From positions 1,103,497 to 1,167,496 of the forward strand of contig JBAZNR010000001.1 in NCBI GenBank assembly GCA_041649175.1: a stretch of DNA of 64,000 bases, given 5' to 3'. Both the position numbers and the translations under genes were made by a program. This DNA comes from Candidatus Omnitrophota bacterium (GTDB taxonomy: Bacteria > Omnitrophota > Gorgyraeia > Zapsychrales > JBAZNR01). A model generated the notes under the pieces. The model ran no database searches, was not told where the DNA came from, and saw nothing but the letters and a program-made list of their open reading frames with translations. This document shows positions 51,017 through 64,000 of the stretch, piece by piece; position 1 is the first letter of the stretch, and every line of letters starts with the position of its first letter.

Positions 51017-51018
51017 TC

Positions 51019-51678
51019 ATGGCAAATCCGCAAAGCGGTGATTGGGAACAATTTTGGAAGACAACAAATCATTACACCGCGCCTAAAATAAGCTGGTCCA
51101 AAAAACGCGTTCTCGACGTTATAAAGCCTTATGTTGTTGCCGGAAAAAATGCCCTAGATGCCGGTTGCGGCAGCGGGTTTTTTGCGAAACACTTTTATGA
51201 TGCCGCAATGGCGACAACCGCCTTGGATTATTCTCCCAAGGCTTTAGAAATAACGCGGCAACTGACTGGCGGTCGTGTTAAGATCATCCAAGAGGATTTG
51301 TTGAAGCCTCATTTATCGTCGAGAATTTCGGAGCGTTTTGACCTAATTTTTTCGGACGGACTTTTTGAACATTTCTTGCCAGGTGAGCAAGATGTCATTA
51401 TGAAAAATTTTATAAGCCTTTTAAATCCCAATGGTGTCGTTGTGACCTTTGTTCCAAACCGTTTTTCCCCTTGGGAGATCATCCGCCCATTTTTTATGCC
51501 CGGAATTGACGAAACTCCTTTTGTCCCAAGAGGTTTAGCGTCTCTTAATGAAAGAAACGGCCTTAAAATCTTAGGTTCTGGCGGTGTTAATGTTCTTCCT
51601 TTTTTTGTTTCTCCGGAGAAGTTTTTAGGAAAATATTTCGGAATGCTGCTCTATACAATTTCTTGCCGCAATGTCTAA
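51019..51678 (+). CDS. Class I SAM-dependent methyltransferase
   Basis: Motif I LDAGCGSGFFAKHF, plus post-I acidic and motif II residues. Confidence 0.7.
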   Translation: MANPQSGDWEQFWKTTNHYTAPKISWSKKRVLDVIKPYVVAGKNALDAGCGSGFFAKHFYDAAMATTALDYSPKALEITRQLTGGRVKIIQEDLLKPHLSSRISERFDLIFSDGLFEHFLPGEQDVIMKNFISLLNPNGVVVTFVPNRFSPWEIIRPFFMPGIDETPFVPRGLASLNERNGLKILGSGGVNVLPFFVSPEKFLGKYFGMLLYTISCRNV

Positions 51679-52672
51679 TTATTCGATCAGTATTGTCATC
51701 CCGGCTTTTAATGCGCAAAAAACCATCGCGCAAGCCATTGATGCCGCGCGTAATCAAGATTATCAAAGGTCCATTGAGATCATTGTTGTTGATGACGGCT
51801 CAACCGATGCGACCGCGCAGATCGCGACATCTTTTGCGGGCGTGAAGTATATTCATCAGAAAAATCTTGGGCCGGCGGTCGCGCGTAATCGCGGATTTAA
51901 AGAATCAAGAGGGGATATTATATTTTTTACGGACTCTGATTGTGTTGCGCAAAACGATTGGGTCAGCCGTTGTGTCGCGCATTTTTCCGACGACAAAATT
52001 GGAGTTGTTTGCGGAACATATGGCATTGTCAATACCCGGAATCTTTTAGCGCAATGCGTTCACGCGGAGATCGTTTTTCGCCATCGCGTGCTTTTGCCGG
52101 ATTTCCCTAAAGCGTTTGGCAGCTATAACTTTTGCGTGAGAAGATCGGTTTTTGAAGGCGTCGGCGGTTTTAATAAACATTATCGTTTTGCCAGCGGGGA
52201 AGACAATGATCTTAGCTATCGAATTCTCCAGATGGGATATAAAATTTATTTTGAGCGAAAAGCCGTCGTTGCCCATCATCATCCGGAACGCGTGATGAAA
52301 TATTTGTCCGAGCAATATCGCCATGGATTCTGGAGAGCTAAGATGTATTTCGATCATCCGCAGATGAGTATCGGCGACGATTATACTTTTTGGAAAGACA
52401 TTGTTGAACCGCCTTTGGCTCTGTTGATCACGCTATTGTTCTTCATAAATACTGCTTTTTTCTGGGCGAATTTGGTATATCTTTACTTATTTTTGGCGGG
52501 TTTATCCGCTTTGATTTTGATCGAATTATTCTATGGATTTATGACCACAAAAAGCTTTTTTAAAGGGGCTTTTTGGACATTAATTATGCTTCTTCGCGCC
52601 TTTGTCCGCATGGCCGGTTTCTCCCTCGGATTTCCCCTCTTTTTTGCCAAAAAAACCTTCCAAAAAAACTAA
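51671..52672 (+). CDS. GT2 glycosyltransferase with a C-terminal membrane anchor region
   Basis: ISIVIPAFNAQKTIAQAIDAA...IIVVDDGSTDAT...FTDSDC, and C-terminal TM helices. Confidence 0.75.
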   Translation: MSNYSISIVIPAFNAQKTIAQAIDAARNQDYQRSIEIIVVDDGSTDATAQIATSFAGVKYIHQKNLGPAVARNRGFKESRGDIIFFTDSDCVAQNDWVSRCVAHFSDDKIGVVCGTYGIVNTRNLLAQCVHAEIVFRHRVLLPDFPKAFGSYNFCVRRSVFEGVGGFNKHYRFASGEDNDLSYRILQMGYKIYFERKAVVAHHHPERVMKYLSEQYRHGFWRAKMYFDHPQMSIGDDYTFWKDIVEPPLALLITLLFFINTAFFWANLVYLYLFLAGLSALILIELFYGFMTTKSFFKGAFWTLIMLLRAFVRMAGFSLGFPLFFAKKTFQKN

Positions 52673-52825: not shown

Positions 52826-53722
52826 ATGTCCTATCATAAACTACTAGGTTTCAACGTCGAACCCTTCTCCACAAGCCCCGATCCCGAATTTTTTTATCTT
52901 ACCCGCGAACACGATATGGCCCTTACCAATATCCTCATTGAACTGCGGTTACGCCGCGGCCTTACTGTTATTTTTGGCGATGTCGGCACCGGAAAAACAA
53001 CGCTTTCACGTAAGCTCGTTCAAGAATTAAAAAACCGCGGCGACATTATTTTTCATATGATCCTCAATCCTTCGTTTGAAAGCGAAGAGCAATTTTTAAC
53101 CTCATTGGTGCGCAACTTTGACGTGGATTATTCTTTTTCTCCTCAGTCCACCATGGCCAATATTCTGGATCTGCGCGATGCCATGGAAAAATTTCTTATT
53201 CAAAAATGCGTGGAAGAAAAACAAACGGTGATCCTTATTATTGATGAGGCGCAAAAATTAAATTTAACGACTCTGGAAGTTTTGCGCGTTCTTTTGAATT
53301 TTGAAACCAATGAATACAAATTGATCCAGCTTGTTTTATTGGGGCAGTTGGAACTTTATCCGAAGATCGTTAACATGCCCAACTTCTTGGACCGGATCAG
53401 TTTTAAATACACCTTAAATCCTTTAGGCCCGCAAGAGACGAAAGAAATGATCGAGTTTCGTATCCGTAAGGCTGGATATAATTCTTCGGCTAAACTTTTC
53501 AATGACGAAGCCATCAGCGAAATTTATACGTATTCGCGCGGTTATCCGCGGCGCATTACCATGTTGTGTCATCAGGCGCTCAAAGAATTAGTTTTACAGA
53601 ACAAGTACATTGTGGACCGCGTGATCATCCGCGATGTGATCGAGAAAGATAGAAAAGCGGAATTTGACCGCGCAGATATCGCGCCCAAAACAACGTATCA
53701 AAAGATCCAAGATATTAGCTGA
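52826..53722 (+). CDS. AAA ATPase of the ExeA/GspA/MshM family (secretion/pilus assembly)
   Basis: Walker A GDVGTGKTTLSRKL, Walker B IILIIDEAQKL. Size and organisation match MshM-type soluble ExeA-like ATPases. Confidence 0.7.
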   Translation: MSYHKLLGFNVEPFSTSPDPEFFYLTREHDMALTNILIELRLRRGLTVIFGDVGTGKTTLSRKLVQELKNRGDIIFHMILNPSFESEEQFLTSLVRNFDVDYSFSPQSTMANILDLRDAMEKFLIQKCVEEKQTVILIIDEAQKLNLTTLEVLRVLLNFETNEYKLIQLVLLGQLELYPKIVNMPNFLDRISFKYTLNPLGPQETKEMIEFRIRKAGYNSSAKLFNDEAISEIYTYSRGYPRRITMLCHQALKELVLQNKYIVDRVIIRDVIEKDRKAEFDRADIAPKTTYQKIQDIS

Positions 53723-53765: not shown

Positions 53766-54473
53766 ATGGAAAAAAAAGAGACAGCCGAGAAGAAACTTCT
53801 AAAACTTATCGAAAGCTCTGGCTCCAGCGCGGAAGCTAAAACGCCGGCCGCGTCCGATGTGGCTATGCAAGTGGCTGCCGCGGTCAAAGAGACGGGTTTT
53901 TCTGTTCCCAATGCCGCATCTTTCTTGGCTCCCATCCTTGATCTTTTTCGCGGAAAATTTTCCTCAACCGCTAATTCTGTTTTAACCTTTGGCTTAAGAG
54001 AGGCTAATCAGCTTTTGGCAGTTATTGTCGGAGGCTTGCTGATCTTTTCTATTGCCAGTATGGTCAGAGACACAAAAATACTGGAAGAAAGAGTTTTGAC
54101 ATCGGTGAATATCCCCGAAATTGAAAGCGTGGAAAACGATGCGGTTCCGCAGAAAAAAGATGTCTCCGATTATTTGGCATCGGTAGAAAAGCGCAACATC
54201 TTCCAGCCGTTTGAAAAAAAGCCGGAAGAAAAAATTGTCGATGCATCTTCCGGATCGCCGCAGATCGCTACCATTGCTAAAAATTATAAACTCGTTGGGA
54301 TTTCTTGGCTTGACTCTCCGGATTCCGCTTCGGCATTGATCGAAGACACGCAAAGCGGTAATACCTTTTTCTTAAAGAAAGGCGAGAAGATCAGCAACAT
54401 CACTATTAAGGATATTTTTGCGGATCGTGTTATTTTAACCTACCAAGGCGAGGATGTTGCCATAAAGCTATGA
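53766..54473 (+). CDS. Bitopic inner-membrane protein with a C-terminal PilP/GspC-HR-like beta domain. Putative secretin-interacting protein
   Basis: Central TM LLAVIVGGLLIFSIASMV. C-terminus YKLVGISWLDSPDSASALIEDTQSGNTFFLKKGEKISNITIKDIFADRVILTYQGEDVAIKL follows the PilP/GspC pattern. Overlaps the secretin start. Confidence 0.45.
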   Translation: MEKKETAEKKLLKLIESSGSSAEAKTPAASDVAMQVAAAVKETGFSVPNAASFLAPILDLFRGKFSSTANSVLTFGLREANQLLAVIVGGLLIFSIASMVRDTKILEERVLTSVNIPEIESVENDAVPQKKDVSDYLASVEKRNIFQPFEKKPEEKIVDASSGSPQIATIAKNYKLVGISWLDSPDSASALIEDTQSGNTFFLKKGEKISNITIKDIFADRVILTYQGEDVAIKL

Positions 54474-56161
54474 GCCATTCTTTTAAAAAGATCTTTCTTT
54501 CCTTGTGTTTGGCGATAGGCATGTTTTTGTCTGCGCCTTCGTTCATTCTTTCTCAGGATGCCGATAACGGCGCGCCTGCCAATACAGAAAACGCGCAAGA
54601 CGCTCAGTCGGCGCCTTCCAAAGTTGTTCCTGTAAGCCCAACCGATATTCCTAAACCGATCGTGCTTGACGCGCCCAAGGAAACGTTGGAGCAAAGGCTT
54701 CTGCGAAAGATCACTTTAGATGTGCGCGATATGAATATCGTTGATGTGATCAAGTTTTTAGCGCTTAAAGGAGATTTCAATGTGGTGACCAGCCGCAATG
54801 TCGGAGGGCGCGCGACACTCTTTTTAAAGAATGTTTCCATCCGGGACGTTTTGGATATTGTTCTGATTTCCAATAAATTGGCGTATCAGCTTCAAAACGA
54901 TATTGTTTATGTTATGTCGGAAGACGAATATTTAACGATGTATGGCAAGAAATACAATGATAAAAGCGAAGTGGCCATCATCCATTTGTACTATGCCAAG
55001 CCAAGTTATGTTCTAGCAACGCTAGACACGATGAAAAGTGCTTTAGGAAAAGTGATCATTGATGAAGATACGGGCTCGGTGGTCATGATCGATACGCCGC
55101 AAACCATTGCCAATATGAAAAGAGCCATCGATGATATGGAAAGCCCGTTGGAAACCTATATCTATACTTTGCAATATGCCAAGGCCGATGTGATCTCTGA
55201 AAAGTTAAAAGCCCGGGTTGATGCCAATGCCGTTGGTTCTATCACGCCCGATGAACGTTCGAATCAGATCATCGTGCGGGCGCTTCCGGGGCGCCGCGAA
55301 GAAGTGGAGGCGATGATAAAAACCCTGGATGTTAAAACGAAGGAAGTTTTAATTGAGGCGCGCGTCCTGCAAGTTGTTCTAAAGCCGACGTTTAATATGG
55401 GCATTGACTGGAACATGAATTTTACCGATAGCAATGATCCTGAAATTAAAAAATTAACTTTTGGAAATACATTTCTCAATGAGGCGGTTTTAACATCCAG
55501 CAATCCTTTGTCGGCCGCGTTTAGCAAAATTGCTATCGGCAATATTGATGTTGATCATTTTGAATCAGCCATTCGGGCTTTAAAGCAGGTAAGTGATACA
55601 AAAATCCTTTCCAACCCTAAGCTTTTGGTGACCAACAATGAAGAGGCAAAAATTCATATCGGTGACACGATCCCTTATATCATTTCCACAACATCAGGGA
55701 CCGGGGACAATGCCGTTACCAGCGAAGATGTTCGCTTTGTTGACGTGGGCCTCAAGTTGTTAGTAACGCCCGCCATCAACGATGATGGGTTTGTCACCAT
55801 GCGCTTAAAGCCGGAGATCTCAACAGTCGTTGACAAAATAGAATCAAAAGGCGGCGGTATCCCGCAGATCAATAAAACCGAACTTGAAACAACCGTTATG
55901 GTCAAAGACGGCAACACGATCATCATGGGCGGTTTGAAAAAGGATGATAAAACGCATACTAAAAAAGGCTTGCCGTTTTTGATGGATATTCCGTTTTTAG
56001 GCCGGCTTGTCAGTTCAACTTCGGACAGCATTACGTCCACTGAGATCGTTATTTTCATAACACCTCATGTTGTTTCGGGAGAATCAACCTATACAAGCTA
56101 TGACGGGTCGATCAAACCGCTTAAAGACTATGGCGAGATCGAAGATTTGCGCAAGGAATAG
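54470..56161 (+). CDS. Secretin (GspD/PilQ/MshL family outer-membrane channel)
   Basis: Signal peptide. N0/N1-like domains. C-terminal secretin domain with LVTNNEEAKIHIGDTIPYI...GLPFLMDIPFLGRLV. Confidence 0.85.
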   Translation: MSHSFKKIFLSLCLAIGMFLSAPSFILSQDADNGAPANTENAQDAQSAPSKVVPVSPTDIPKPIVLDAPKETLEQRLLRKITLDVRDMNIVDVIKFLALKGDFNVVTSRNVGGRATLFLKNVSIRDVLDIVLISNKLAYQLQNDIVYVMSEDEYLTMYGKKYNDKSEVAIIHLYYAKPSYVLATLDTMKSALGKVIIDEDTGSVVMIDTPQTIANMKRAIDDMESPLETYIYTLQYAKADVISEKLKARVDANAVGSITPDERSNQIIVRALPGRREEVEAMIKTLDVKTKEVLIEARVLQVVLKPTFNMGIDWNMNFTDSNDPEIKKLTFGNTFLNEAVLTSSNPLSAAFSKIAIGNIDVDHFESAIRALKQVSDTKILSNPKLLVTNNEEAKIHIGDTIPYIISTTSGTGDNAVTSEDVRFVDVGLKLLVTPAINDDGFVTMRLKPEISTVVDKIESKGGGIPQINKTELETTVMVKDGNTIIMGGLKKDDKTHTKKGLPFLMDIPFLGRLVSSTSDSITSTEIVIFITPHVVSGESTYTSYDGSIKPLKDYGEIEDLRKE

Positions 56162-56228: not shown

Positions 56229-57302
56229 ATGAATAAGGCCACCAATAGATCTAAAAAGGAAAATTTAAGGATTGTTTTGTGCGTAGGAGCCGGCATGGCG
56301 CTCGTGATCGGCGCGCAAGGTGCTCATCTTGGGGCGGCTGTTGAAGATGTCGAAGTGGTAGAAACGGAAATTACTTCCGAGCAGATCTTATCTGATGAAC
56401 AAAACGCTCAAGGTGAAAGACCAGCTGCCGGCGGCAGTGTCAACGATAGCTTAGATGACTTATCGATGGCTGAACGGCAAATGGCGGTGATCAATACGAC
56501 ACTAAAAAATGTGATCGAAGAAAATAAGAAGCTTCTCGATGAGAAAGTTAAGATTGAAAATGAACTGAAAGAATTACGCGGTCAAACTGAGATCCGCGCG
56601 AGCCGCCTGAACACCTTAACGCGCCAGCGAGATGAATTAGAAAAGCGAATTACGGACACGGAGGAAGCTCAGGGGCAATATGCGTTAGAAATTGAACAGC
56701 TCAAAAAAGACCTTGCGGACAAAGAAAAGGAGCTGACCGAGAAATTAACGACTATGCAGGAGGCGCAGGCGAAAGAAAAAGAAGAGCAAGAAAAGGCCAT
56801 GGCGATGGTTTTGCCGGGGCAAAAAGATGCCGCGGCCGTAGCGGAGTCGAAAAAACAGCTTCAAGATATTAAAATGCAGGCCAAGGAAACATTAAATAGC
56901 GTGGAAGATAATGTCAAAAGAATTGCCGGGCAGATCTCTGAGCTTAATTTGGAAAATAAAAAGCTCAAGCAGGATTCGGTCAAGCTTCACTACAATATGG
57001 GGAATAATTATTTTGAACAGGGAAAATATAAAAAGGCGGCCGCCGAATATCAGCGGGTCATTGACTTAACGCCTAACGATGCGGCGGCGCATTATAATTT
57101 GGCGTTTGTCGCTAGTGAATTCTTAAAAGATCAAAAACTCGCTTTGGAACATTATCAGCAGTATTTATATCTTAGCCCGGATGCGGAAGATGCGCTTTTG
57201 GTGAAAGAGAAAATATTGCATGCGCAGCTAACACTTAAAACTCAAATTGACTCGGTGATCGAAGAAAAACCTAAGAAAATAAAAGCGGCAAAAGATAAAT
57301 AG
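56229..57302 (+). CDS. Membrane-anchored coiled-coil protein with C-terminal TPR repeats (MshN-like)
   Basis: N-terminal TM. Long heptad-rich segment. TPR-like YNMGNNYFEQGKYKKAAAEYQRVIDLTPNDAAAHYNLAFV. Confidence 0.55.
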   Translation: MNKATNRSKKENLRIVLCVGAGMALVIGAQGAHLGAAVEDVEVVETEITSEQILSDEQNAQGERPAAGGSVNDSLDDLSMAERQMAVINTTLKNVIEENKKLLDEKVKIENELKELRGQTEIRASRLNTLTRQRDELEKRITDTEEAQGQYALEIEQLKKDLADKEKELTEKLTTMQEAQAKEKEEQEKAMAMVLPGQKDAAAVAESKKQLQDIKMQAKETLNSVEDNVKRIAGQISELNLENKKLKQDSVKLHYNMGNNYFEQGKYKKAAAEYQRVIDLTPNDAAAHYNLAFVASEFLKDQKLALEHYQQYLYLSPDAEDALLVKEKILHAQLTLKTQIDSVIEEKPKKIKAAKDK

Positions 57303-57306
57303 TTTT

Positions 57307-59037
57307 TTGGATTTTTTTATGACGCAATTTATCAAGAAATTTTTCTTGTTGAAAATGGACTTTGGGCGAAAAGCCCCGAAAACGGGGCTTTTCGCCCCGA
57401 TTTTCCTTTTTTCTTTCTGCCTTTGGTCTTTGGTCTTTAGTCTTTGGCCTGCTGCGCCTGTCCTCGCCAATAATCTTGCGATCTCCAATGTCACCATGAG
57501 CACCCGTGATCCGGCTAATGACACTTTTATTCTACAATTTGATGTTTCTTGGAATAATTCTTGGCGCAACAAGATCAATCACGATGCCGTTTGGCTGTTT
57601 GTTAAAGTCGATACCGGCACAGCGCCGTATTCTCATTGCTTGATGAAAACTTCCGGCGCCAGCCCAACAGGATTTTCCGCAGGCTCAGACTCGGATCTGG
57701 CGATCTATGTTCCAACGGATAAAATGGGCGCGTTTTTACGGCCTTCAGCGTCTCAAGCTATGGGAAATATCTCAACAACAAGTGTCCAACTAAAGGTAGA
57801 TTACGGCGCTAGTAGCTGCAACATCGCGGATACCGCCAGCATCACGCCTTACGTTTACGGCATTGAAATGGTCTTTGTTCCAACGGGTTCGTTTTACGCT
57901 GGAGATTTTCCAACTTCGAGTAGCGCATTTAGGCAGGGCTCTGCAGATGCCGATCCTTGGTATATCACGAGCGAGGGAACTATTGCTGTCCAAAATGTAG
58001 CGTCTGATGGGTATTATTATAAAAATTCCGGCTACATAACTCCTCCTAATGAATTCTCCGATGGAACGGTTTTTACTATCCCTGCTGTTTTTCCTAAGGG
58101 TTACGCGGCTTTTTATGCCATGAAATATGAATTGACCGAAGGGCAATGGGTAAGTTTTTTTAACACGCTTACAACAGATCAAAAAAATACTCTGGATATA
58201 ACGGGCAATGTTACAAACATGGGGATTGTACTCGGTGGAAAAAATTCTGATAGCTTAATATACCGCAACACGGTTAGTTGGGATTCCGGAACGCCCACAG
58301 TGGCCGCTGTAACAACCCGAGGTGATCGTGCCATGAGCTACATTTCATGGGTTGATCTTTGTGCTTATTTGGATTGGGCAGGTCTACGTCCAATGACAGA
58401 ATTGGAATATGAAAAACTTGCTCGTGGTCCGGTTATTCCCGTGCGAGATGAGTATGCCTGGGGTAGCACAGATTTTGTAAAAGCTGTGACAATTTTGACG
58501 GCCATAGGCTCTGAGGACGGCGCGGAAACGATCACAACCACGGACGGAGTTACGCACGCAAACATATTTGTTCCTCCGGTTGGAGGTTCGGCTTACGTGG
58601 GGGGAGACGACTACATCGGAACGCATGGCGCCAGCGGGCCGTTGAGGGCAGGCATTTTTGCTACTGCCACGTCAGACCGAGTGATGAGCGGAGCTGGCTA
58701 TTATGGAGCGATGGAATTAAGCGGGAATTTAAAAGAGATGGTCGTAACTGTTGCGAGCACTGTTGGAATTGGATTTATTGGCAATCACGGAGATGGGGCA
58801 TTGACTAGTGGTGGTTGTTACGGTTGTGCTGATGTTACCGGCTGGGTACAGCTTACAGGCGCAGGAATTATCCTCGGCAGTGGTTCTGGTACCCGAGGCG
58901 GCGGGTGGGGGTCTCCGGTAGCGGGTGGTGACGAAAAAACAATTTCCTATCGCGGCCTTTGGATATCTGGTTATTCAACCAATACCAGATCTCCTGCTAT
59001 GGGCGGGCGCGGTGTTCGCACATATGATGGCAGTTAA
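57307..59037 (+). CDS. Secreted FGE/SUMF1-fold (formylglycine-generating-enzyme family) domain protein, paralog A
   Basis: Signal peptide ending VLA|NN. FGE-sulfatase domain blocks VFVPTGSFYAGD, FYAMKYELTEGQWVSFFN and VSYISWVDLCAYLDWAGLRPMTELEYEKLARG. TTG start; the true start is uncertain. Confidence 0.65.
   Translation: MDFFMTQFIKKFFLLKMDFGRKAPKTGLFAPIFLFSFCLWSLVFSLWPAAPVLANNLAISNVTMSTRDPANDTFILQFDVSWNNSWRNKINHDAVWLFVKVDTGTAPYSHCLMKTSGASPTGFSAGSDSDLAIYVPTDKMGAFLRPSASQAMGNISTTSVQLKVDYGASSCNIADTASITPYVYGIEMVFVPTGSFYAGDFPTSSSAFRQGSADADPWYITSEGTIAVQNVASDGYYYKNSGYITPPNEFSDGTVFTIPAVFPKGYAAFYAMKYELTEGQWVSFFNTLTTDQKNTLDITGNVTNMGIVLGGKNSDSLIYRNTVSWDSGTPTVAAVTTRGDRAMSYISWVDLCAYLDWAGLRPMTELEYEKLARGPVIPVRDEYAWGSTDFVKAVTILTAIGSEDGAETITTTDGVTHANIFVPPVGGSAYVGGDDYIGTHGASGPLRAGIFATATSDRVMSGAGYYGAMELSGNLKEMVVTVASTVGIGFIGNHGDGALTSGGCYGCADVTGWVQLTGAGIILGSGSGTRGGGWGSPVAGGDEKTISYRGLWISGYSTNTRSPAMGGRGVRTYDGS
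57365..57396 (+). terminator. Perfect 14-bp hairpin GGCGAAAAGCCCCG-AAAA-CGGGGCTTTTCGCC followed by a T-rich run. Terminator-like, embedded in the 5' coding region of FGE-like paralog A
   Basis: Seen directly. 63 nt after the upstream stop. It overlaps codons for the signal-peptide n-region (GRKAPKTGLFAP). Confidence 0.5.
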
Positions 59038-59063
59038 AAAACAGGGTTTAGTGTTTAGGAATT

Positions 59064-60704
59064 ATGCTTAGGTTTCAAGATATGAGAAAAACGTTTTCTA
59101 TTTTTTTTCTTTGGTCTTTCGTCTTTAGTCTTTTGTCTATTGTGCCTGCTTTTGCCAACAACTTACAGATTGCTAACTTTTATGATTACAGCACCGACAC
59201 CTCTGCCAACACTATGACTTTCACCTTTAATGTCACGCAAGACAATAGCTGGAGAAACGCCACCAATTATGATGCTGTATGGATGTTTATGAAGTATTCA
59301 ACCGATGGCGGAGCTAGTTGGAATCATGGCAGCATGTCCGCATCCGGCACTAATCCAACAGGCTTTAACGCGCCTACCGGATTTGAAATAAAAGTCCCGG
59401 CGGATGAAAAAGGATTTTTCTTGCAAAGAACCGATCTTGCCGCGGGAAGCATTTCCGCCTCAGGTGTTCGCGTAGTCTGGGATTATGGCCAAGATGGGCT
59501 GTCGGATGCGACCGCACAAGCCGGCAATACAACCTTGAAAATTTTTGGGCTAGAAATGGTTTATATTCCTGAAGGATCGTTTTATGCGGGGGATGCGAGC
59601 GGCGGCAATTTAACGGCAGTATTAAAGCAAGGTAGTGCCGATGAAGATTCTTGGTATATTGCAAGCGAAAATGCAATAAATGCCACAAACGCATCGGCAG
59701 ACGGATATTATTATTTCAGTGCGGGGCAAAATGATGAAGATGTAGACGGAGCTACCTTTCTTATTCCCGCTCAATTTCCTAAAGGTTATCAGGCATTTTA
59801 CTTGATGAAATATGAGCTGACTGAAGGCCAGTGGGTGTCATTTTTTAATACGTTAACGACTGACCAAAAAACGATCCGCGATATTACGAGTTCAACAGCA
59901 GGCGGAAAAAATTCCGATGCAGTTATCTTAAGAAACACAATTAGCTGGGATTCAGCTTCGCCTTTAAAAAATGCTAAGACAACCCGCCCCGATAGAGCGG
60001 TTTCTTATATCGGCTGGCCCGATATTTGCGCCTATGCCGACTGGGCTGCGCTTCGTCCTTACACGGAGTTAGAGTTTGAAAAAGCCGCCAGAGGCGCAGG
60101 TATTACTGCAGTATCGGGTGAATACGCTTGGGGTAATACAACGATTACAGCCGCGGCTACTTTTTCCGGAACTCCGGAAAATGGAACTGAAACAATCGCA
60201 ACGGCAAGCGCTAATGCTAACTACAACAATACGGCTTTTAGTCTTGGCGACGACTACTTAGGTGTTCAATATACCCGCGGGCCTGTTCGTGTAGGAATTT
60301 TTGCGACAAGCGTTTCAACGCGGACGACTGCCGGTACTGGATATTATGGCAATATGGAGTTGTCAGGAAATCTCTGGGAGCCGACGGTTACGGTAGGAAA
60401 TTCCTGGGGACGAGTATTTTTAGGAACCCACGGCGATGGAACGTTGACAACTTTAGCCAGCTATGAAGGCAATGCGACAAATTTAGATTGGCCAGGCTTT
60501 AATTCAGCTAATCCAACGCGGGGTGTTAACGGAACTAAAGGAAGCGGTTACAAAGGCGGTGGTTTTGAGACGGACTCCTTTGAAAGGCTTGGCACATCAA
60601 GCCGAAGAAAAGTTGCTGCAAATGCGGAAAGCGACGCGAGCACAAGCTACAGGTCTCATGGCGGACAATTTTTTGCCGGCAGGTTAGCTCGCACGGCAGA
60701 TTGA
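59064..60704 (+). CDS. Secreted FGE/SUMF1-fold domain protein, paralog B (tandem duplicate of A)
   Basis: Same blocks as A (MVYIPEGSFYAGD, FYLMKYELTEGQWVSFFNTLTTDQK, VSYIGWPDICAYADWAALRPYTELEFEKAARG). Homologous signal peptide ending AFA|NN. Confidence 0.65.
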   Translation: MLRFQDMRKTFSIFFLWSFVFSLLSIVPAFANNLQIANFYDYSTDTSANTMTFTFNVTQDNSWRNATNYDAVWMFMKYSTDGGASWNHGSMSASGTNPTGFNAPTGFEIKVPADEKGFFLQRTDLAAGSISASGVRVVWDYGQDGLSDATAQAGNTTLKIFGLEMVYIPEGSFYAGDASGGNLTAVLKQGSADEDSWYIASENAINATNASADGYYYFSAGQNDEDVDGATFLIPAQFPKGYQAFYLMKYELTEGQWVSFFNTLTTDQKTIRDITSSTAGGKNSDAVILRNTISWDSASPLKNAKTTRPDRAVSYIGWPDICAYADWAALRPYTELEFEKAARGAGITAVSGEYAWGNTTITAAATFSGTPENGTETIATASANANYNNTAFSLGDDYLGVQYTRGPVRVGIFATSVSTRTTAGTGYYGNMELSGNLWEPTVTVGNSWGRVFLGTHGDGTLTTLASYEGNATNLDWPGFNSANPTRGVNGTKGSGYKGGGFETDSFERLGTSSRRKVAANAESDASTSYRSHGGQFFAGRLARTAD

Positions 60705-60721: not shown

Positions 60722-63700
60722 ATGAACTTATTAAATAAAATTTTCCAAAACAGGAATCAAAAAGATGAAAGGCGAAAAAATGCCTATAGGCATTTTTTCG
60801 CCCCATTCGTCTTTTCATTTCTTGTGTCTTTGGTCTTTGGCCTCTGGTCTCCTCTGACTGCTTTCGCCCAATACACCGGTGGCAGTTATGACGGCGGCGC
60901 CGACACGACTTTAGGCGATAATATTACAACCGGCGGTTCCTATGACGGTTTTTCCAGCGGTGCGTCGTCAGCTGGCTATGCCGGTCAGGGCGCTCCCAGC
61001 TACGTTTCCTTTTCCAATACCGTTCCTACAACTCAGCGTAACAGCTATTTTAATCCTCAGCCTAAGCTCCTTTTAAAAGACGCCGCCGGAAATACCATTA
61101 CCCATGGCACCTGGTCTGATGATACGGTAACCCTTTCTATTTATAATAATCCTTCCAACGGCACGCTTTCTGGTACAACCGGTATTACCTTTACGTCCGG
61201 CATTGCCGGCTTCACTTATCAGGGCCTTCGTATTGATAATCCCGGTGAGCTTTATACGCTTAAAGCAACCTTGCAGTCCGACACAACGATTGTCGGAACT
61301 TCCAATAGTTTTGATATTCTTAGCGGTGAATTTGTCCTCAAGTCGGCGGTCTTGCCCTTTGCCAGCTATCCTGAATCTCGTAAAGTTGTAGTCTGGCTAG
61401 AAGATCCGGTGGGTAATATCGTTACCCTTAATACAGTAGGCACTCCTTCCGGTAGCGTTGCAATTTATAGCGATGACGGCACATACAATTCGGATTGCGG
61501 AACTAGCGCTAACGAAGATTGCTCAGCAGGAAATATAGGCTTGGAGCCTCTTGCTGATGCAGATGGCACAACACGGACTGTTCAATATCCGGCAACTGAT
61601 CAATCTGGAGCCTATGGCACCAAAGCCTGGCGGCCGGATTTTACAAAATCCTATCGGTATCGTGCAACATTAACGGCAAATGGCGCGACATACACCGGCA
61701 TGTTTGATTATACGCCGCCCGAAGAATTTTCTGTTAAGACAGCGATCTTGGATTCTACCGGGAGCGGTAAATTTGCTCCGCAAGCCTGGATAGAAATTGA
61801 TGGCCAAAGAGTCACCTTCGATGCAAGCCGCCCTGACTCTGCGACAGTGACGATCACCGATGCTCAGGGATTAGGAGCAGTTGGTGATTGCGGTGGTGGC
61901 AGTTGCACTGCCATTGACATGACTTTGGACGCCGATATTTTTTATTATTATTTTTGGGAACCTGCCGATTTCTTAACTGGCTATCGCGGAAAAGTAGAGA
62001 TCACCTATGCGTATCATACCTATACGACCTATGCGACCTATGATCCTAGTTCATACTACATGGGGACTCTGCAAGGCAGCTTAGATACTATCGCAGCCAA
62101 AACCAACACCATCAACTGGACCAATATTACCGACATTAAATCCGCCACCGATACTATCAATTGGACCAATGTTACCGATATTAAATCTGCTACCGACACC
62201 ATTAATTGGCTTGATGTCGGCGTTTTAACATCCGGTACGGCGGCTATTCAAGCGGTCACCGATCTTTTATCTCCCATCAACTGGGATGATGTCGAAGTTC
62301 TCACCAAACAAGGGATTAACTGGGCTGACTTTGACCGTATGTCGGATGTCGGTATTAATTGGGAAGATTTGTATGTGTTGTCATCCGCCGGGATTAATTG
62401 GTCTGACCTAGATATCCTTTCGGACGCCGGTGTCAATTGGATGGACATTGATGTTTTATCGGACTCTGGAATTAATTGGTCTGATTTAGACGCATTTTCT
62501 GACGCGGGTATTAACTGGCTAGATATCGATATCCTAGCTGATGCGCTTATTAATTGGGACGACTTAGCCTTTATGGCGTCTGCCGGTGTTAACTGGTTTG
62601 ATGTCGCCTACATGAGCGGAGTGGGGACAAATTGGACATACGCCATTAATTGGGACAGCTTAGCCGAGTTAACAACAGCGGCTGTGAACTGGGCGGATAT
62701 GACGGTAATGTCCAGCGCTGGGCTCAATTGGTATGACCTGGAAGTGATGACCGATGCCGGAGTGAACTGGGAAGACGTGGGCGTTTTAAGCGCTACGGGC
62801 ATTAACTGGGTTGATTTGGATATCCTTTCAGATGCTGGCGTAAACTGGGGTGACTTAGATGTGCTTTCCAATACCGGTATCAACTGGCTTGATTTTGATG
62901 TGCTTTCTGACGCCGGCATCAACTGGATCGATTTGGATAAACTGTCAGATGCCGGTATCAATTGGGTGGATTTTGACAGTCTGTCCGATTCAGGTATTAA
63001 TTGGATTGATTTGGATATTTTGTCCGATGCAGGTGTTAAATGGGCTGACTTTGCCACTCTGACCAACGCCGGGATCAACTGGGTCGATTTGGATAAACTG
63101 TCAGATGCGGGCATTGCATGGTCTGACTTTTCCACTCTATCCAAGGCCGGTATCAATTGGGCGGATTTTGATATTTTGTCGGATGCGGGGATCAATTGGG
63201 TGGATTTGGATAAGTTTTCTGATGCCGGTATTAACTGGCTTGATATCGACATCCTCGCGGATAAGGGAATTAATTGGCTAGACTTGGACGTCCTATCCGA
63301 TGCGGGGATCAATTGGCTGGATATCGATACGATTTCAAATACTGGCATCAACTGGGTTGATTTTGACGTCTTATCCGATGCGGGAGTTAATTGGTCAAAT
63401 TTAGGCGCGCTTTCCGAAGCCGGCATAAACTGGACAGATTTGAATGTTCTCTCCGAGACCGGCATCAATTGGCTGGATCTGGATGTCTTGACCAATACGG
63501 GAATCAACTGGATTGACTTAGATGCGCTGGCAGATGCCGGGATCAATTGGTCGGACATCGATGTTATTTCCAAAACGGGTATCAATTGGAATGACTTGGA
63601 CATCCTCTCTGATGCAGGCATCAACTGGAGTGACTTGGACACCTTATCTAAGGCCGGTATCAATTGGTCGGACTTGGACGTCCTCTCTGATACGGGTATT

Positions 63701-64000
63701 AACTGGAGTGATTTGGATGTCTTATCTAAGACAGGCATTAATTGGAGCGATATTGACGTTCTTTCCGATGCGGGGGTCAACTGGCTGGATATCGACATCC
63801 TCTCTGACATCGGTATCAATTGGTCGGACTTGGACATCCTCTCTGACACCGGCATCAATTGGTCGGATCTGGACACCTTATCTAAAGCCGGTATCAACTG
63901 GAGCGACCTGGACGTCCTTTCTGATACAGGTATTAATTGGAGTGATTTGGATGTCTTATCTAAGACCGGTATCAATTGGAGCGATATTGACGTTCTATCC
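60722..64000 (+). CDS. Very large secreted protein, 3' partial: the frame is open to the window end at more than 1090 codons. A ~460 aa non-repetitive N-terminal region is followed by at least 45 tandem 13-residue repeats G-I-N-W-x-D-[LIF]-D-x-L-S-D-[AT]
   Basis: Manual translation from the ATG at 60722 shows no stop through 64000. Signal peptide homologous to those of the two FGE paralogs (AFA|QY). The ORF track lists no complete frame-0 ORF, consistent with read-through. Confidence 0.6.
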   Translation, partial: MNLLNKIFQNRNQKDERRKNAYRHFFAPFVFSFLVSLVFGLWSPLTAFAQYTGGSYDGGADTTLGDNITTGGSYDGFSSGASSAGYAGQGAPSYVSFSNTVPTTQRNSYFNPQPKLLLKDAAGNTITHGTWSDDTVTLSIYNNPSNGTLSGTTGITFTSGIAGFTYQGLRIDNPGELYTLKATLQSDTTIVGTSNSFDILSGEFVLKSAVLPFASYPESRKVVVWLEDPVGNIVTLNTVGTPSGSVAIYSDDGTYNSDCGTSANEDCSAGNIGLEPLADADGTTRTVQYPATDQSGAYGTKAWRPDFTKSYRYRATLTANGATYTGMFDYTPPEEFSVKTAILDSTGSGKFAPQAWIEIDGQRVTFDASRPDSATVTITDAQGLGAVGDCGGGSCTAIDMTLDADIFYYYFWEPADFLTGYRGKVEITYAYHTYTTYATYDPSSYYMGTLQGSLDTIAAKTNTINWTNITDIKSATDTINWTNVTDIKSATDTINWLDVGVLTSGTAAIQAVTDLLSPINWDDVEVLTKQGINWADFDRMSDVGINWEDLYVLSSAGINWSDLDILSDAGVNWMDIDVLSDSGINWSDLDAFSDAGINWLDIDILADALINWDDLAFMASAGVNWFDVAYMSGVGTNWTYAINWDSLAELTTAAVNWADMTVMSSAGLNWYDLEVMTDAGVNWEDVGVLSATGINWVDLDILSDAGVNWGDLDVLSNTGINWLDFDVLSDAGINWIDLDKLSDAGINWVDFDSLSDSGINWIDLDILSDAGVKWADFATLTNAGINWVDLDKLSDAGIAWSDFSTLSKAGINWADFDILSDAGINWVDLDKFSDAGINWLDIDILADKGINWLDLDVLSDAGINWLDIDTISNTGINWVDFDVLSDAGVNWSNLGALSEAGINWTDLNVLSETGINWLDLDVLTNTGINWIDLDALADAGINWSDIDVISKTGINWNDLDILSDAGINWSDLDTLSKAGINWSDLDVLSDTGINWSDLDVLSKTGINWSDIDVLSDAGVNWLDIDILSDIGINWSDLDILSDTGINWSDLDTLSKAGINWSDLDVLSDTGINWSDLDVLSKTGINWSDIDVLS
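60771..60802 (+). terminator. Perfect 14-bp hairpin GGCGAAAAAATGCC-TATA-GGCATTTTTTCGCC in the 5' coding region of the repeat-protein gene. Analogous to the hairpin in paralog A
   Basis: Seen directly. 67 nt after the upstream stop. Same outer stem GGCGAAAA/TTTTCGCC as at 57365, with compensatory inner changes. Confidence 0.45.
62100..64000 (+). repeat. 39-bp (13-codon) in-frame tandem repeat array encoding GINWxDLDxLSDA units. Continues beyond the window
   Basis: Visible periodicity of ggtatcaattggtcggacttggacgtcctctctgat-type units. It also creates a spurious long antisense ORF. Confidence 0.8.

What the first reader, a model, noticed from the sequence alone, without database searches (positions are those of the whole stretch)
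60722..64000. Giant secreted protein with at least 45 tandem 13-residue G-I-N-W-x-D-L-D-x-L-S-D-A repeats
The + strand frame beginning at ATG 60722 stays open for 3.28 kb to the window edge. After a signal peptide and a Gly/Tyr-rich non-repetitive ~460 aa region (including a Cys-pair segment DCGGGSC), the sequence settles into a strict 39-bp repeat. Each unit encodes one Trp, one Asn and three Asp per 13 residues (GINWSDLDILSDA and variants). This is not the RTX nonapeptide or any repeat I recognise. The acidic periodicity suggests a metal-binding solenoid or surface fibre. The reverse strand of the array also lacks stops, giving a 455-aa antisense ORF that is almost certainly an artefact.
Basis: seen in the sequence. 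Interest (0 to 1): 0.7.

Follow-up and report, generated by a model that had tools for sequence, protein, structure and literature searches.

The report
Secretin-linked giant 13-residue repeat protein
This is the first 1,093 codons of a real, exported protein made of a strict 13-residue repeat with no existing annotation, conserved across the uncultured phylum Omnitrophota next to an outer-membrane secretin gene and exceeding 6,700 residues in some genomes, so it is probably a long surface fibre.

Summary
From ATG 60722 the + frame stays open to the window edge (1,093 codons). It encodes a signal peptide, a ~460-aa head, three 15-residue units and then 43 full 13-residue G-[IV]-N-W-x-D-h-x-x-[LM]-[ST]-x-[AST] units.

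The + strand is the coding strand, and the 455-aa antisense ORF is a by-product.

The gene belongs to an unannotated family: no credible Pfam, NCBIfam, PHROG or PDB match. A profile search of 1.84 billion proteins found 339 representatives, and the named core members are Candidatus Omnitrophota. In 81 related loci the gene follows GspC-like, secretin and TPR genes (53 of 56 loci that hold the 5' end). A ~430-aa membrane protein follows it in 24 of 25 loci that hold the 3' end.

Array length runs from about 28 units (868 aa) to at least 462 units (at least 6,706 aa). 56 of the 81 loci run out inside the array.

The "acidic, metal-binding" reading is not family-wide. Net charge per unit runs from -2.5 to +0.1 between genomes.

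Covariation favours one short helix per unit rather than a beta-roll, but both AlphaFold runs were low-confidence and disagreed.

Best reading: a length-variable fibre stalk with a modular head and a conserved C-terminal anchor, working with the adjacent secretin. That function is inferred, not shown.

The parts
60722..64000 (+). 5' part (1,093 codons) of the INW-repeat protein gene. It is cut by the window edge, and the true length is unknown.
   Evidence: Open frame. 42% identity to the complete 868-aa homologue P0001. Codon-position entropy 0.91/0.51/1.51 and synonymous:non-synonymous ratio 2.6:1 among units.
60722..60868 (+). Predicted Sec signal peptide, aa 1-49: basic n-region, hydrophobic core, and ...TAFA|QY cleavage motif.
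   Evidence: Read from the sequence. The AxA-QY(T/S)GGS junction aligns with P0001. This is an inference; no signal-peptide predictor was run.
60872..60952 (+). Two Gly/Tyr-rich GGSYDG motifs directly after the cleavage site, a family hallmark.
   Evidence: The same motif follows the signal peptide in P0001, P0024-P0026, P0029-P0031 and P0055.
61004..61321 (+). Ig-like (Big-type) domain, aa 95-200.
   Evidence: Window aa 22-227 align to P0001 aa 13-206 (36% identity, E 2e-22). This is also the only part matched by the Gemmatimonadales multi-Ig proteins P0002-P0019.
61322..62086 (+). Two further non-repetitive modules (aa 201-455), each with a W[LI]E motif and a Cys pair (DCGTSANEDC and DCGGGSC).
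   Evidence: The C-G-G-x-C...M loop recurs in P0021, P0022 and P0138. No Pfam match.
62096..62272 (+). Three 15-residue K/A-T-D-T-I-N-W-T-x-[IV]-T-D-I-K-S units plus a linker (aa 459-517).
   Evidence: TRF period 45 bp at 62102-62209. Trp spacing of 15. Conserved in P0001, P0020, P0021, P0030 and P0138.
62273..62623 (+). INW 13-residue units 1-9 (aa 518-634).
   Evidence: The same run of ten 13-spaced Trp (nine full units plus the first Trp of the landmark) precedes the landmark in P0001, P0021 and P0024.
62585..62692 (+). Family landmark ...VNWxDVAYMSGxGxNWxx-[AI]INWDSLAELTTxxVNW, containing the 6-residue half unit (62624-62641).
   Evidence: Present in the window, P0001, P0020-P0024, P0026, P0029-P0031 and P0172-P0179. 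This was the pattern that retrieved 100 genomic loci.
62642..64000 (+). INW 13-residue units 10-43 plus one unit cut by the window edge. This is the variable-length part of the array.
63578..64000 (+). A duplicated six-unit (234-bp) block. The copies are 86.8% identical in DNA but 61/63 identical in protein.
   Evidence: TRF period 234 bp, 86% matches. Of the 25 nucleotide differences only 2 change an amino acid.
62608..63975 (-). 455-aa antisense ORF, a by-product of the repeat's codon composition and not a gene.
   Evidence: Listed. It lies in the frame whose wobble positions coincide with those of the sense frame, and its synonymous:non-synonymous ratio is lower (1.4:1 against 2.6:1). In 44 homologous arrays the best antisense frame carries 3-85 stops while the sense frame stays open.
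52826..53722 (+). ExeA/GspA/MshM-like AAA ATPase.
   Evidence: AAA_22 match, and TIGR03015 at 184 bits, below its cutoff. Upstream on the same strand in 31 of 56 loci.
53766..54473 (+). GspC-like protein.
   Evidence: PF11356 T2SSC at 28.3 bits. Upstream in 48 of 56 loci.
54470..56161 (+). Outer-membrane secretin.
   Evidence: Pfam Secretin E 4.6e-50 plus Secretin_N. PilQ 257 bits, GspD 227 and MshL 185, all below their equivalog cutoffs. Upstream in 53 of 56 loci.
56229..57302 (+). TPR protein, possibly a pilotin or MshN/PilW-like accessory.
   Evidence: TPR families. Weak PilW and Tgl matches. Upstream in 52 of 56 loci.
57307..60704 (+). Two paralogous exported proteins with an FGE-sulfatase-like domain (57307-59037 and 59064-60704). 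This part of the operon is variable between genomes.
   Evidence: PF03781. 48% identical to each other. Signal peptides seen in the sequence. Present in 39 of 56 loci.
49942..52672 (+). GT2 glycosyltransferase, methyltransferase and a second GT2 at the head of the conserved gene string.
   Evidence: The same genes, plus DUF2304, are found in L001-L003. The 360-nt gap between the first GT2 and the methyltransferase leaves room for the small DUF2304 gene, but that stretch was not examined. From the methyltransferase to the INW gene, gaps are -8 to 67 nt except one of 153 nt between GT2b and the ATPase.

Best explanation
The window holds the 5' 3.3 kb of a protein-coding gene under strong purifying selection. 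Its family is previously unannotated and widespread in Candidatus Omnitrophota.

Architecture, shown from complete homologues, in order:
- a Sec signal peptide;
- GGSxDG motifs;
- a modular head: an Ig-like domain plus beta-sandwich-like modules, and in some genomes LamG or Rha78A-type Ig domains, up to about 1,800 aa;
- two or three 15-residue TDTINW units;
- nine full 13-residue INW units (ten 13-spaced Trp);
- a conserved landmark;
- an INW array of very variable length (about 19 to more than 450 units);
- a terminal landmark;
- a ~250-aa helical Ser/Thr-rich C-terminal domain ending in VV[VI]K[TS]WFE[SA][ED].

The gene sits in a co-directional operon after GspC-like, secretin and TPR genes (usually also an ExeA-like ATPase, often two FGE-like proteins). 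A ~430-aa protein with a signal peptide, coiled coils and a C-terminal membrane helix follows it.

Inferred mechanism: the protein is exported by Sec and displayed through, or released by, the operon's secretin. It then acts as a long fibre. The INW array is a stalk whose copy number sets its reach. The N-terminal head is the distal binding module. The conserved C-terminal domain tethers the fibre to the cell, possibly through the downstream membrane protein.

Each unit most likely forms a two-turn helix (positions 5-13: N-cap at position 5, Gly C-cap at position 1) joined by a G-[IV]-N-W hairpin. I2, W4, h7, L10 and A13 are buried. Positions 5, 8 and 12 form an exposed, fast-evolving stripe, which is Asp-rich in this genome.

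Confidence is split. That this is a real gene of this family, with this architecture and synteny: about 0.9. The anchored surface-fibre mechanism: about 0.45. The helix-hairpin unit: about 0.6.
For: Real gene on the + strand:
- Third-codon-position entropy is 1.51 bits, against 0.51 at position 2, and synonymous:non-synonymous is 2.6:1 among units.
- The duplicated 234-bp block differs at 25 nucleotides but only 2 residues.
- The complete homologue P0001 is 42% identical.
- Sense frames stay open for thousands of codons in homologues, while antisense frames carry stops.

Family and distribution:
- 339 representatives at E<=1e-3 and 129 at E<=1e-10 among 1.84 billion proteins.
- The named core members are Omnitrophota.
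- 100 loci were found among GTDB species genomes.

Architecture and landmarks.

Synteny:
- Same gene order in L001-L003.
- Upstream on the same strand: secretin 53/56, TPR 52/56, GspC-like 48/56. The downstream ~430-aa protein is present in 24/25 loci.
- From the methyltransferase to the INW gene, gaps are -8 to 67 nt except one of 153 nt between GT2b and the ATPase.

Length variation: 868 aa with 28 units up to at least 6,706 aa with at least 462 units.

Unit logo from 8,391 units: G86, [IV]96, N99, D80, h100, [LM]92 and [ST]91 percent.

Evidence for a helix:
- The top direct couplings are 8-12, 6-9, 9-12, 5-8, 5-9 and 9-13 (i+3 and i+4), with none at i+2.
- The entropy moment peaks at 90-100 degrees and the hydrophobic moment at 120 degrees.
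- An acid at position 6 or 9 is interchangeable (S6D9 enriched 9.6x).
- The MSA-based AlphaFold run gives one 8-9-residue helix per unit.
- There is local similarity to the first helix-hairpin-helix of the RAD51 N-terminal domain.

Modular heads. Downstream protein topology.
Against: - Nothing shows secretion, surface location or adhesion. The role of the secretin rests on gene order only.
- The secretin module looks like the cell's general type IV pilus or type II secretion secretin, because pilus and T2SS E/F/M/N genes lie a few kb downstream in L001-L003. Adjacency may therefore not mean a dedicated conduit.
- The two AlphaFold runs disagree and both have low confidence: all-beta at pLDDT 61.5, helical at pLDDT 44 and pTM 0.20.
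- Covariation among tandem repeats is confounded by shared descent.
- No Pfam helix-hairpin-helix model matches.
- The window does not contain the 3' end, so the C-terminal anchor and the downstream partner are inferred for this genome from homologues of at most 64% identity.
Confidence: 0.5

Rival explanations
1. One reading: the array is a beta-solenoid or beta-roll with one or two units per coil, and its regularly spaced Asp side chains bind Ca2+ or another metal, as in RTX proteins.
For: - Single-sequence AlphaFold gave an all-beta model with two short strands per unit (pLDDT 61.5, pTM 0.57).
- Its only, non-significant, fold matches were beta-helices.
- In this window D6, D8 and D12 are frequent and net charge is about -2.2 per unit.
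- An invariant Asn and an aromatic ladder are typical of beta-solenoids (general knowledge).
Against: - Positions 8 and 12 are not conserved in the family. D is only 20% and 23% there, and some genomes have neutral or Lys/Arg-rich units (P0023).
- Couplings are i+3 and i+4, not i+2.
- Variable positions 5, 8 and 12 lie on one helical face, and L10 would point outward in a strand.
- No RTX or other beta-roll Pfam family is found even at E<=10. The only beta-solenoid-type entry is a sub-threshold Pentapeptide_4 match (16 bits against a cutoff of 38, no passing stretch).
- No fold match reached E<=0.001.
Confidence: 0.13
2. The protein is a released type II secretion substrate, or a polyanionic coat or matrix (S-layer-like) protein, rather than a cell-anchored fibre with a distal head.
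For: - Signal peptide plus a GspC-like protein, secretin and ExeA-like ATPase in the same operon.
- Strongly acidic arrays in many genomes.
- GT2, DUF2304 and methyltransferase genes head the operon, and about one third of units carry an N-W-[S/T] sequon. That would suit a glycosylated coat protein.
Against: The conserved C-terminal domain and tail, and the invariably adjacent membrane-anchored partner (24/25 loci), suggest retention rather than release. The modular N-terminal heads resemble adhesin tips. Neither point is decisive.
Confidence: 0.2
3. It is a periplasmic or envelope accessory of the type IV pilus / type II secretion machine, for example a glycan- or peptidoglycan-binding scaffold that helps the secretin assemble. 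It is not an extracellular product.
For: - It lies between the secretin/TPR module and pilus or T2SS E/F/M/N genes.
- ExeA-type ATPases act on secretin assembly through peptidoglycan (established knowledge of ExeA/GspA).
- Each unit offers a Trp/Asn/Asp triad typical of sugar-binding sites (inference).
Against: Arrays of 2,000 to more than 6,700 residues are hard to fit in the periplasm of a bacterium. More than twenty-fold length variation and a fast-evolving exposed stripe are unusual for a machine component.
Confidence: 0.1
4. The array is a chain of helix-hairpin-helix motifs that binds DNA, acting with a PilQ/HofQ-like secretin in DNA uptake, like a giant ComEA.
For: - The unit aligns with the first HhH of the RAD51 N-terminal domain: GINANDVKKLEEAG, hhalign probability 35%, pairwise E 4e-4.
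- Weak DMC1 matches.
- The secretin also matches the DNA-uptake porin HofQ at 182 bits, far below its cutoff of 554.
Against: - No Pfam HHH family matches even at E<=10.
- Most arrays are strongly acidic, net -1 to -2.5 per unit, which argues against binding a polyanion.
- The G-h-G hairpin that contacts phosphate is G-[IV]-N here.
Confidence: 0.04
5. The open frame is not a functional gene. It is a decaying pseudogene, an assembly artefact of a repeat, or the antisense ORF is the real product.
For: The window ends inside the array, so an early stop cannot be excluded. Repeats of this kind break or collapse short-read assemblies: 56 of 81 related loci run out inside the array.
Against: - Strong purifying selection among units.
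- Orthologous landmarks and head domains in the + frame across about 100 loci.
- Complete homologues with conserved C-termini.
- Antisense frames are interrupted in every homologue.
Confidence: 0.02

Closest known systems
Omnitrophota giant proteins next to type II/IV secretion-like loci (West-Roberts et al. 2023, bioRxiv 10.1101/2023.11.21.568195; 2026 preprint 10.64898/2026.06.07.730766)
   Same: Same phylum. Very long repetitive exported proteins encoded beside secretion or pilus genes, proposed to mediate attachment to prey or host.
   Different: Those proteins are defined by Pfam content (dockerin, TSP3, SecA DEAD-like, WD/HEAT/NHL and others). They are preceded by a locus of more than 10 genes with gspD/E/F, rcpC and a Rotamase_2 isomerase, and followed by pilZ. 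Here the array has no credible Pfam match. The operon is ExeA-like / GspC-like / secretin / TPR / (FGE-like x2), and the gene is followed by a ~430-aa membrane protein and the ATP synthase operon. Neither paper mentions secretin, sulfatase or a 13-residue repeat.
RTX repeats-in-toxin adhesins (LapA, MpIBP type)
   Same: The overall logic is the same: a giant surface protein with a long repetitive extender, a ligand-binding end, a cell-retention end, and a dedicated outer-membrane conduit. This window's units are acidic, with G at position 1 and D at position 6.
   Different: The RTX unit is a 9-residue GGxGxDxUx Ca2+-binding beta-roll, exported by type I secretion through a C-terminal signal. 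Here the period is 13, no RTX Pfam family matches, there is an N-terminal Sec signal, the neighbour is a secretin rather than a TolC/ABC/MFP set, and the unit is probably helical.
Helix-hairpin-helix motifs (first HhH of the RAD51/DMC1 N-terminal domain; tandem (HhH)2 arrays such as topoisomerase V)
   Same: Local sequence pattern h-x-x-L-x-x-x-G-I-N-x-x-D-h-x-x-L-x-x-A-G. The predicted short helix, hairpin, short helix geometry fits a 13-residue period if neighbouring motifs share helices.
   Different: Similarity is weak (hhalign probability 35%; DMC1 PDB E 2.4). No Pfam HHH model matches. The hairpin is G-[IV]-N-W rather than G-h-G. The arrays are acidic and extracytoplasmic, and no known HhH array has hundreds of contiguous 13-residue units.
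MSHA-pilus / type II secretion outer-membrane module (MshL secretin, MshM/ExeA ATPase, MshN TPR, GspC)
   Same: The four upstream genes match these families by Pfam and NCBIfam domains. Pilus or T2SS E/F/G/M/N genes lie nearby in homologous loci.
   Different: All matches fall below the equivalog cutoffs, so the subtype is undetermined. No described MSHA or T2SS operon carries a repeat protein of this kind between the secretin module and the platform genes (my own knowledge; not tested against the literature beyond).
Tight beta-rolls with short repeats (YadA head, 14 residues per turn; Tenebrio antifreeze protein, 12 residues per turn)
   Same: Repeat length close to 13, invariant Asn/Gly positions, and a fibre-like role for YadA.
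   Different: These comparisons come from memory. No YadA, Hep_Hag or antifreeze family matched in Pfam. There is no C-terminal beta-barrel anchor. The covariation pattern is helical.
Phage tail-fibre-like proteins with short runs of INW units
   Same: The same x-I-N-W motif at 13- or 14-residue spacing, in 3-13 copies, in P0115, P0139, P0167 and IMG/VR contigs L091, L093, L095 and L102. The C-terminus of P0115 matches tail-fibre family phrog_9017.
   Different: The runs are short and less regular. There is no landmark, no conserved C-terminal domain and no secretin context. Homology as opposed to convergence was not tested.

Membership tests
RTX / hemolysin-type Ca2+-binding repeat proteins | Nonapeptide GGxGxDxUx repeats recognised by Pfam HemolysinCabind. 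| tested here: not met
   The period is 13 residues. No RTX family appears in Pfam even at E<=10.
RTX / hemolysin-type Ca2+-binding repeat proteins | Type I secretion: a C-terminal signal, no N-terminal signal peptide, and adjacent ABC/MFP/TolC genes. | tested here: not met
   An N-terminal Sec-type signal peptide is present. The neighbours are a secretin, a GspC-like protein and a TPR protein.
Pentapeptide-repeat / other catalogued beta-solenoid repeats | A match to the family HMM above its gathering score. | tested here: not met
   Pentapeptide_4 scores 16 bits against a cutoff of 38, with no passing stretch. Fold search of the beta model gave no match at E<=0.001.
Helix-hairpin-helix (HhH) motif family | A match to Pfam HHH models, or a significant profile match to a known HhH domain. 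| tested here: inconclusive
   No HHH family at E<=10. hhalign against the RAD51 N-terminal domain covers 23 columns at 35% probability. DMC1 scores 23 bits in NCBIfam against a cutoff of 448.
Helix-hairpin-helix (HhH) motif family | Non-sequence-specific DNA binding through the hairpin. | not testable with these tools
   Net charge of -1 to -2.5 per unit in most arrays argues against it.
Dockerin / EF-hand-type Ca2+ loops | A 12-residue loop with conserved D/N at positions 1, 3, 5 and 12, and a Pfam Dockerin_1 or EF-hand match. | tested here: not met
   No Pfam match. Read as an EF-hand-type loop starting at unit position 8 (my own mapping), loop position 3 falls on the conserved Leu/Met and loop positions 1 and 5 fall on the variable unit positions 8 and 12.
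Omnitrophota 'Archaeovorin' / 'Dockerin-type' giant proteins (West-Roberts 2023) | Domain content (dockerin, TSP3, SecA DEAD-like and others) and size in the tens of thousands of residues. | tested here: not met
   None of these Pfam families occur in the window protein or in P0001, P0021, P0022 or P0026. The largest member seen is at least 6,706 aa.
Omnitrophota 'Archaeovorin' / 'Dockerin-type' giant proteins (West-Roberts 2023) | An upstream locus of more than 10 genes with gspD/E/F, rcpC and a Rotamase_2 isomerase, and pilZ downstream. | tested here: not met
   The operon composition differs (against the paper text).
Secretin-dependent exported protein (T2SS substrate or pilus-associated fibre) | An N-terminal Sec or Tat signal for periplasmic delivery. 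| tested here: met
   The signal-peptide features are read from the sequence and conserved in homologues. No dedicated predictor was run.
Secretin-dependent exported protein (T2SS substrate or pilus-associated fibre) | Genetic linkage to a secretin and its accessory genes. | tested here: met
   A secretin lies upstream on the same strand in 53/56 loci, TPR in 52/56 and GspC-like in 48/56.
Secretin-dependent exported protein (T2SS substrate or pilus-associated fibre) | Secretin-dependent appearance outside the outer membrane. | not testable with these tools
   This needs fractionation, microscopy or genetics in an uncultured phylum.
Trimeric autotransporter adhesins (YadA-like) | A C-terminal 4-strand beta-barrel anchor, plus YadA head, stalk or neck motifs. 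| tested here: not met
   No YadA-family Pfam match in the window protein or in the complete homologues. Their C-termini are helical and Ser/Thr-rich and end in ...KTWFESE.

The most novel reading that the evidence does not exclude
The INW array is a new structural class. It would be the shortest known helical solenoid, at 13 residues per helix-hairpin unit, forming a single-polypeptide fibre hundreds of nanometres long. Omnitrophota would thread this fibre through a secretin, keep it tethered by its conserved C-terminal domain and the downstream membrane protein, and tune its length by repeat copy number. In that case it would be the cells' main tether to hosts or prey, and a third kind of secretin cargo beside pili and folded exoproteins.
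Probability: 0.25. Interest if true: 0.8.

Novelty: new variant of a known kind. Interest (0 to 1): 0.62.

Why it matters
Omnitrophota are abundant, uncultured, ultra-small bacteria thought to live attached to or preying on other cells. How they attach is unknown.

This gene is conserved in one fixed position beside a secretin in about 100 species-level genomes. It has no annotation. It also varies more than twenty-fold in length, which makes it a concrete candidate for the attachment apparatus.

The repeat has no solved or catalogued relative. More than 8,000 natural unit sequences are available, enough to support a structure determination or a design study of a very short solenoid unit.

There is also a practical point. 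Most short-read genome bins break inside this gene, so its size and even its existence are systematically under-reported.

Tried and rejected
- Exact look-up of the neighbouring FGE-like protein, to read past the window edge: not on record.
- Metagenome scan with the N-terminal 460 aa, to find the source contig: no relative found.
- Genome scan: the best hit is 64% identical, so the source species is not among the GTDB representatives, and the true 3' end of this gene could not be read.
- Second word-indexed protein search with a 52-column unit profile: it returned only short fragments and added nothing.
The permitted 31-row alignment gave pLDDT 44, so no fold search was run on it.
- Pfam Ntox33, NCBIfam DMC1 and phrog_35229 matches: rejected as annotations. 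On the full-length protein they pass whole-protein E-value filters (and Ntox33 its Pfam gathering score) only by summing sub-threshold repeat matches, with 0 passing stretches. Ntox33 has one passing stretch on a 182-aa sub-fragment.
- Whether the big-head variants had absorbed the FGE-like proteins by fusion: no similarity found.
- Viral-contig scan with the strict window consensus: 0 hits.
- Literature searches for a 13-residue Trp repeat, and for Omnitrophota + secretin + pili: no papers.

Full report
**1. Observation**

Translating 60722-64000 on the + strand gives 1,093 codons without a stop. After aa 518 the Trp residues are exactly 13 apart up to the window edge, apart from one 6-residue step at aa 638/644.

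That yields 43 complete units, one unit cut by the edge and one half unit. Three 15-residue TDTINW units precede them. Tandem Repeats Finder sees periods of 39, 78, 117 and 234 bp.

The window consensus is G-I-N-W-x-D-L-D-x-L-S-D-A, with W 43/43, N 41/43, D6 41/43, D8 31/43 and D12 24/43. The 455-aa antisense ORF at 62608-63975 exists. The description is confirmed.

**2. Coding strand and selection**

Across the 43 units, column entropy is 0.91, 0.51 and 1.51 bits at codon positions 1, 2 and 3 of the + frame. Single-nucleotide codon differences are 2.6:1 synonymous to non-synonymous.

The open antisense frame is the one whose wobble positions coincide with those of the sense frame, and its ratio is lower (1.4:1).

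The last 420 bp are a duplicated six-unit block. The two copies differ at 25 of 189 nucleotides but only 2 of 63 residues. That indicates strong purifying selection on the + frame protein.

In 44 homologous arrays the sense frame is open for up to 6,357 codons, while the best antisense frame always carries 3-85 stops. The antisense ORF is a by-product.

**3. Annotation status**

Pfam, NCBIfam and PHROGs give no credible match to the protein or to complete homologues.

On the full-length protein, Ntox33, DMC1 and phrog_35229 pass the whole-protein E-value filters (Ntox33 also its gathering score) only by adding up many sub-threshold repeat matches, with 0 passing stretches. Ntox33 has one passing stretch on a 182-aa sub-fragment.

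A unit profile finds nothing in the PDB; the best E-value is 0.06. Literature searches found no description.

**4. The family**

A word-indexed search found one true homologue: P0001, 868 aa, from a Candidatus Omnitrophica genome bin. All other hits matched only the N-terminal Ig-like domain.

An exhaustive search with a three-unit profile against 1.84 billion representatives found 339 proteins at E<=1e-3 and 129 at E<=1e-10. The named core members are all Candidatus Omnitrophota.

Complete members share one architecture:
- a signal peptide ending AxA|QY(T/S)GGS;
- GGSxDG motifs;
- an Ig-like domain;
- one or two beta-sandwich-like modules with a C-G-G-x-C loop;
- two or three 15-residue TDTINW units;
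- nine full INW units (ten 13-spaced Trp);
- the landmark ...VNWxDxAYMSGxGVNWxExINWDNLAELTTxGVNW;
- a variable INW array;
- a terminal landmark ...AFMSGxGINWxDxGxxSxxGxNWSDLAxMxxxNINWxxIAYLADNA;
- about 250 aa of helical Ser/Thr-rich sequence;
- the tail VV[VI]K[TS]WFE[SA][ED].

The window protein has every N-terminal element in the same order. It is a family member by orthologous landmarks, not only by repeat composition.

**5. Genomic context**

The window is chromosomal: it carries FtsK, riboflavin genes, NAD-ligase, a PBP, glycine cleavage genes and a lipoate ligase.

Upstream on the same strand lie:
- GT2, a methyltransferase and a second GT2;
- an ExeA/MshM-like AAA ATPase;
- a GspC-like protein;
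- a secretin (Pfam E 4.6e-50; PilQ, GspD and MshL all below their equivalog cutoffs);
- a TPR protein;
- two paralogous exported FGE-sulfatase-like proteins.

From the methyltransferase to the INW gene, gaps are -8 to 67 nt except one of 153 nt between GT2b and the ATPase.

The same order occurs in three Omnitrophota contigs. There the repeat gene is followed by an unannotated 427-455-aa protein, the ATP synthase operon, and then T2SS/pilus E, F, G or PilM/N genes.

A scan of one genome per GTDB species with the landmark pattern returned 100 confirmed loci. Of the 80 kept, most are titled Omnitrophota or Omnitrophica. Many others carry 'uncultured Planctomycetales/Planctomycetia' labels on automated bins, and single records carry Saccharibacteria, Patescibacteria or Puniceicoccaceae labels.

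Of 56 loci that hold the 5' end, 53 have the secretin upstream on the same strand, 52 the TPR protein, 48 the GspC-like protein, 39 an FGE-like protein and 31 the ATPase. Of 25 loci that hold the 3' end, 24 have the ~430-aa protein downstream, in most of them within 101 nt of the stop.

That protein has a signal peptide, coiled-coil-like sequence and a C-terminal membrane helix. It has no family or PDB match.

**6. Size**

Three complete genes are 868, 1,295 and 2,809 aa. In the longer contigs the ORF is still open after at least 6,706 aa (L063, 462 units), at least 5,016 aa (L024, on a complete 3.36-Mb chromosome), and at least 4,595, 4,309 and 4,044 aa.

L036 and L075 lie 1.8 kb apart on one contig. 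If they are continuous they would form a gene of more than 8,800 aa.

56 of the 81 loci run out inside the array (in most the contig itself ends there). In at least eight genome bins the 5' and 3' pieces lie on separate contigs. The repeat therefore breaks short-read assemblies.

The window's own length is unknown. Attempts to read past the edge failed. Its closest relatives are 63-64% identical, and one of them (L005) already has at least 184 units.

**7. What is conserved in the unit**

Across 8,391 units the frequencies are G1 86%, I/V2 96%, N3 99%, W4 100% (by construction of the register), D6 80%, hydrophobic at position 7 100%, L/M10 92%, S/T11 91% and A/T/S13 77%. NW-to-NW spacing is 13 in 8,349 of the roughly 8,650 intervals.

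Positions 5, 8 and 12 are highly variable, at 3.2-3.5 bits. Net charge per unit ranges from -2.5 to +0.1 between genomes, and the window is at -2.2.

**8. Fold**

Single-sequence AlphaFold gave an all-beta model (pLDDT 61.5), with only non-significant beta-helix matches. With a 31-row alignment it gave one 8-9-residue helix per unit, but at pLDDT 44. Neither model is reliable.

Independent sequence statistics favour the helix:
- MI-APC and mean-field DCA on 7,627 unique three-unit windows rank 8-12, 6-9, 9-12, 5-8, 5-9 and 9-13 highest. All are i+3 or i+4, with no i+2 pair.
- The variability moment over positions 5-13 peaks at 90-100 degrees and the hydrophobic moment at 120 degrees, not at 160-180 degrees.
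- Gly1 and the S/T/N/D-rich position 5 fit helix C- and N-caps.
- When D6 is lost, an acid appears at position 9 (S6D9 9.6x, N6E9 5.4x).
- The unit aligns locally with the first helix-hairpin-helix of the RAD51 N-terminal domain, GINANDVKKLEEAG (hhalign probability 35%). No Pfam HHH model matches, so this is a structural lead and not a membership claim.

Covariation between tandem repeats can be inflated by shared descent, so the fold stays unresolved, with helix-hairpin the better-supported model.

**9. Mechanism (inferred)**

Four features fit a surface fibre:
- a Sec signal;
- a fixed place in a secretin operon;
- modular N-terminal heads, from about 300 aa to about 1,800 aa, with LamG or Rha78A-type Ig domains;
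- a stalk whose copy number varies more than twenty-fold, with a fast-evolving exposed stripe.

In this model the head is distal and the stalk length sets the reach. The conserved C-terminal domain and the adjacent membrane-anchored partner would retain the fibre.

The shown steps are gene, family, architecture, synteny and length variation. The inferred steps are export route, location, polarity, anchoring and binding function.

The rivals are a metal-binding beta-solenoid, a released coat or matrix protein, a periplasmic machine accessory, a DNA-binding HhH chain, and a pseudogene or artefact. Each is weighed in its own entry.

**10. Comparison with known systems, and novelty**

The general kind is known: a giant repetitive exported protein beside a secretion system in Omnitrophota (West-Roberts 2023). 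However, the published classes are defined by other domains and a different flanking locus.

The repeat, the conserved landmarks, the C-terminal domain and tail, the downstream partner and this particular secretin operon are not described in the libraries or papers searched. I rate it a new variant of a known kind. Interest is 0.62, chiefly because the family is phylum-wide, unannotated and structurally unassigned.

Noticed in passing
window 57307-59037 and 59064-60704; loci L002, L007-L010, L017, L024, L035, L040: The two exported FGE-sulfatase-like paralogues (48% identical) are present in 39 of 56 loci. They are missing from every locus whose INW protein has a 1,250-1,780-aa 'big head' N-terminus. 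No sequence similarity between the two was found, so the mutual exclusivity is unexplained.
   Followed up: partly
P0115, P0139, P0167; IMG/VR loci L091 (1-1077, - strand), L093 (2-1153), L095 (3922-5751), L102 (9362-12196): Short runs (3-13 copies) of x-I-N-W units at 13- or 14-residue spacing occur in phage-tail-fibre-like proteins. The C-terminus of P0115 matches tail-fibre family phrog_9017. The unit may therefore be a more general fibre building block.
   Followed up: partly
P0046, P0058, P0059, P0062, P0063, P0087, P0088, P0131: A second bacterial architecture carries about 8-10 INW units between an N-terminal region rich in GGLVG-type motifs and Ig-like C-terminal domains. P0131 is also from an Omnitrophica bin; the others are unnamed metagenome proteins.
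   Followed up: partly
loci L004-L083 (for example the pairs L010+L048, L006+L078, L012+L055, L016+L064, L047+L066, L049+L069, L056+L073, L033+L061): 56 of the 81 loci run out inside the array (in most the contig itself ends there), and many genome bins carry the 5' and 3' halves of the gene on different contigs. Short-read assemblies systematically truncate this gene. L036 and L075 lie 1.8 kb apart on one contig and could form one ORF of more than 8,800 aa.
   Followed up: partly
window 49942-52672 and the array 62273-64000: Two GT2 glycosyltransferases and a methyltransferase head the conserved gene string, with a DUF2304 gene as well in the homologous loci. N3-W4-[S/T]5 forms an N-X-S/T sequon in about one third of all units. 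Glycosylation of the array is conceivable but untested.
   Followed up: no
L001 12610-13917; L002 18502-19785; L003 13888-15255: The ~430-aa protein always encoded directly after the INW gene has a signal peptide, coiled-coil-like sequence and a C-terminal membrane helix. It has no Pfam, NCBIfam or PDB relative. It lies beyond the window edge here.
   Followed up: partly
L001 13933-19336; L002 19859-25409; L003 15342-21351: In the homologous loci an F-type ATP synthase operon is nested between the secretin/INW module and the pilus or T2SS E/F/G or PilM/N genes. This is an unusual arrangement, conserved in all three contigs examined.
   Followed up: no
window 48249-49565: An S41 C-terminal processing peptidase with a PDZ domain lies a few genes upstream of the operon in this window but not in L001 or L002. 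A link to the conserved C-terminal tail of the INW protein is pure speculation.
   Followed up: no
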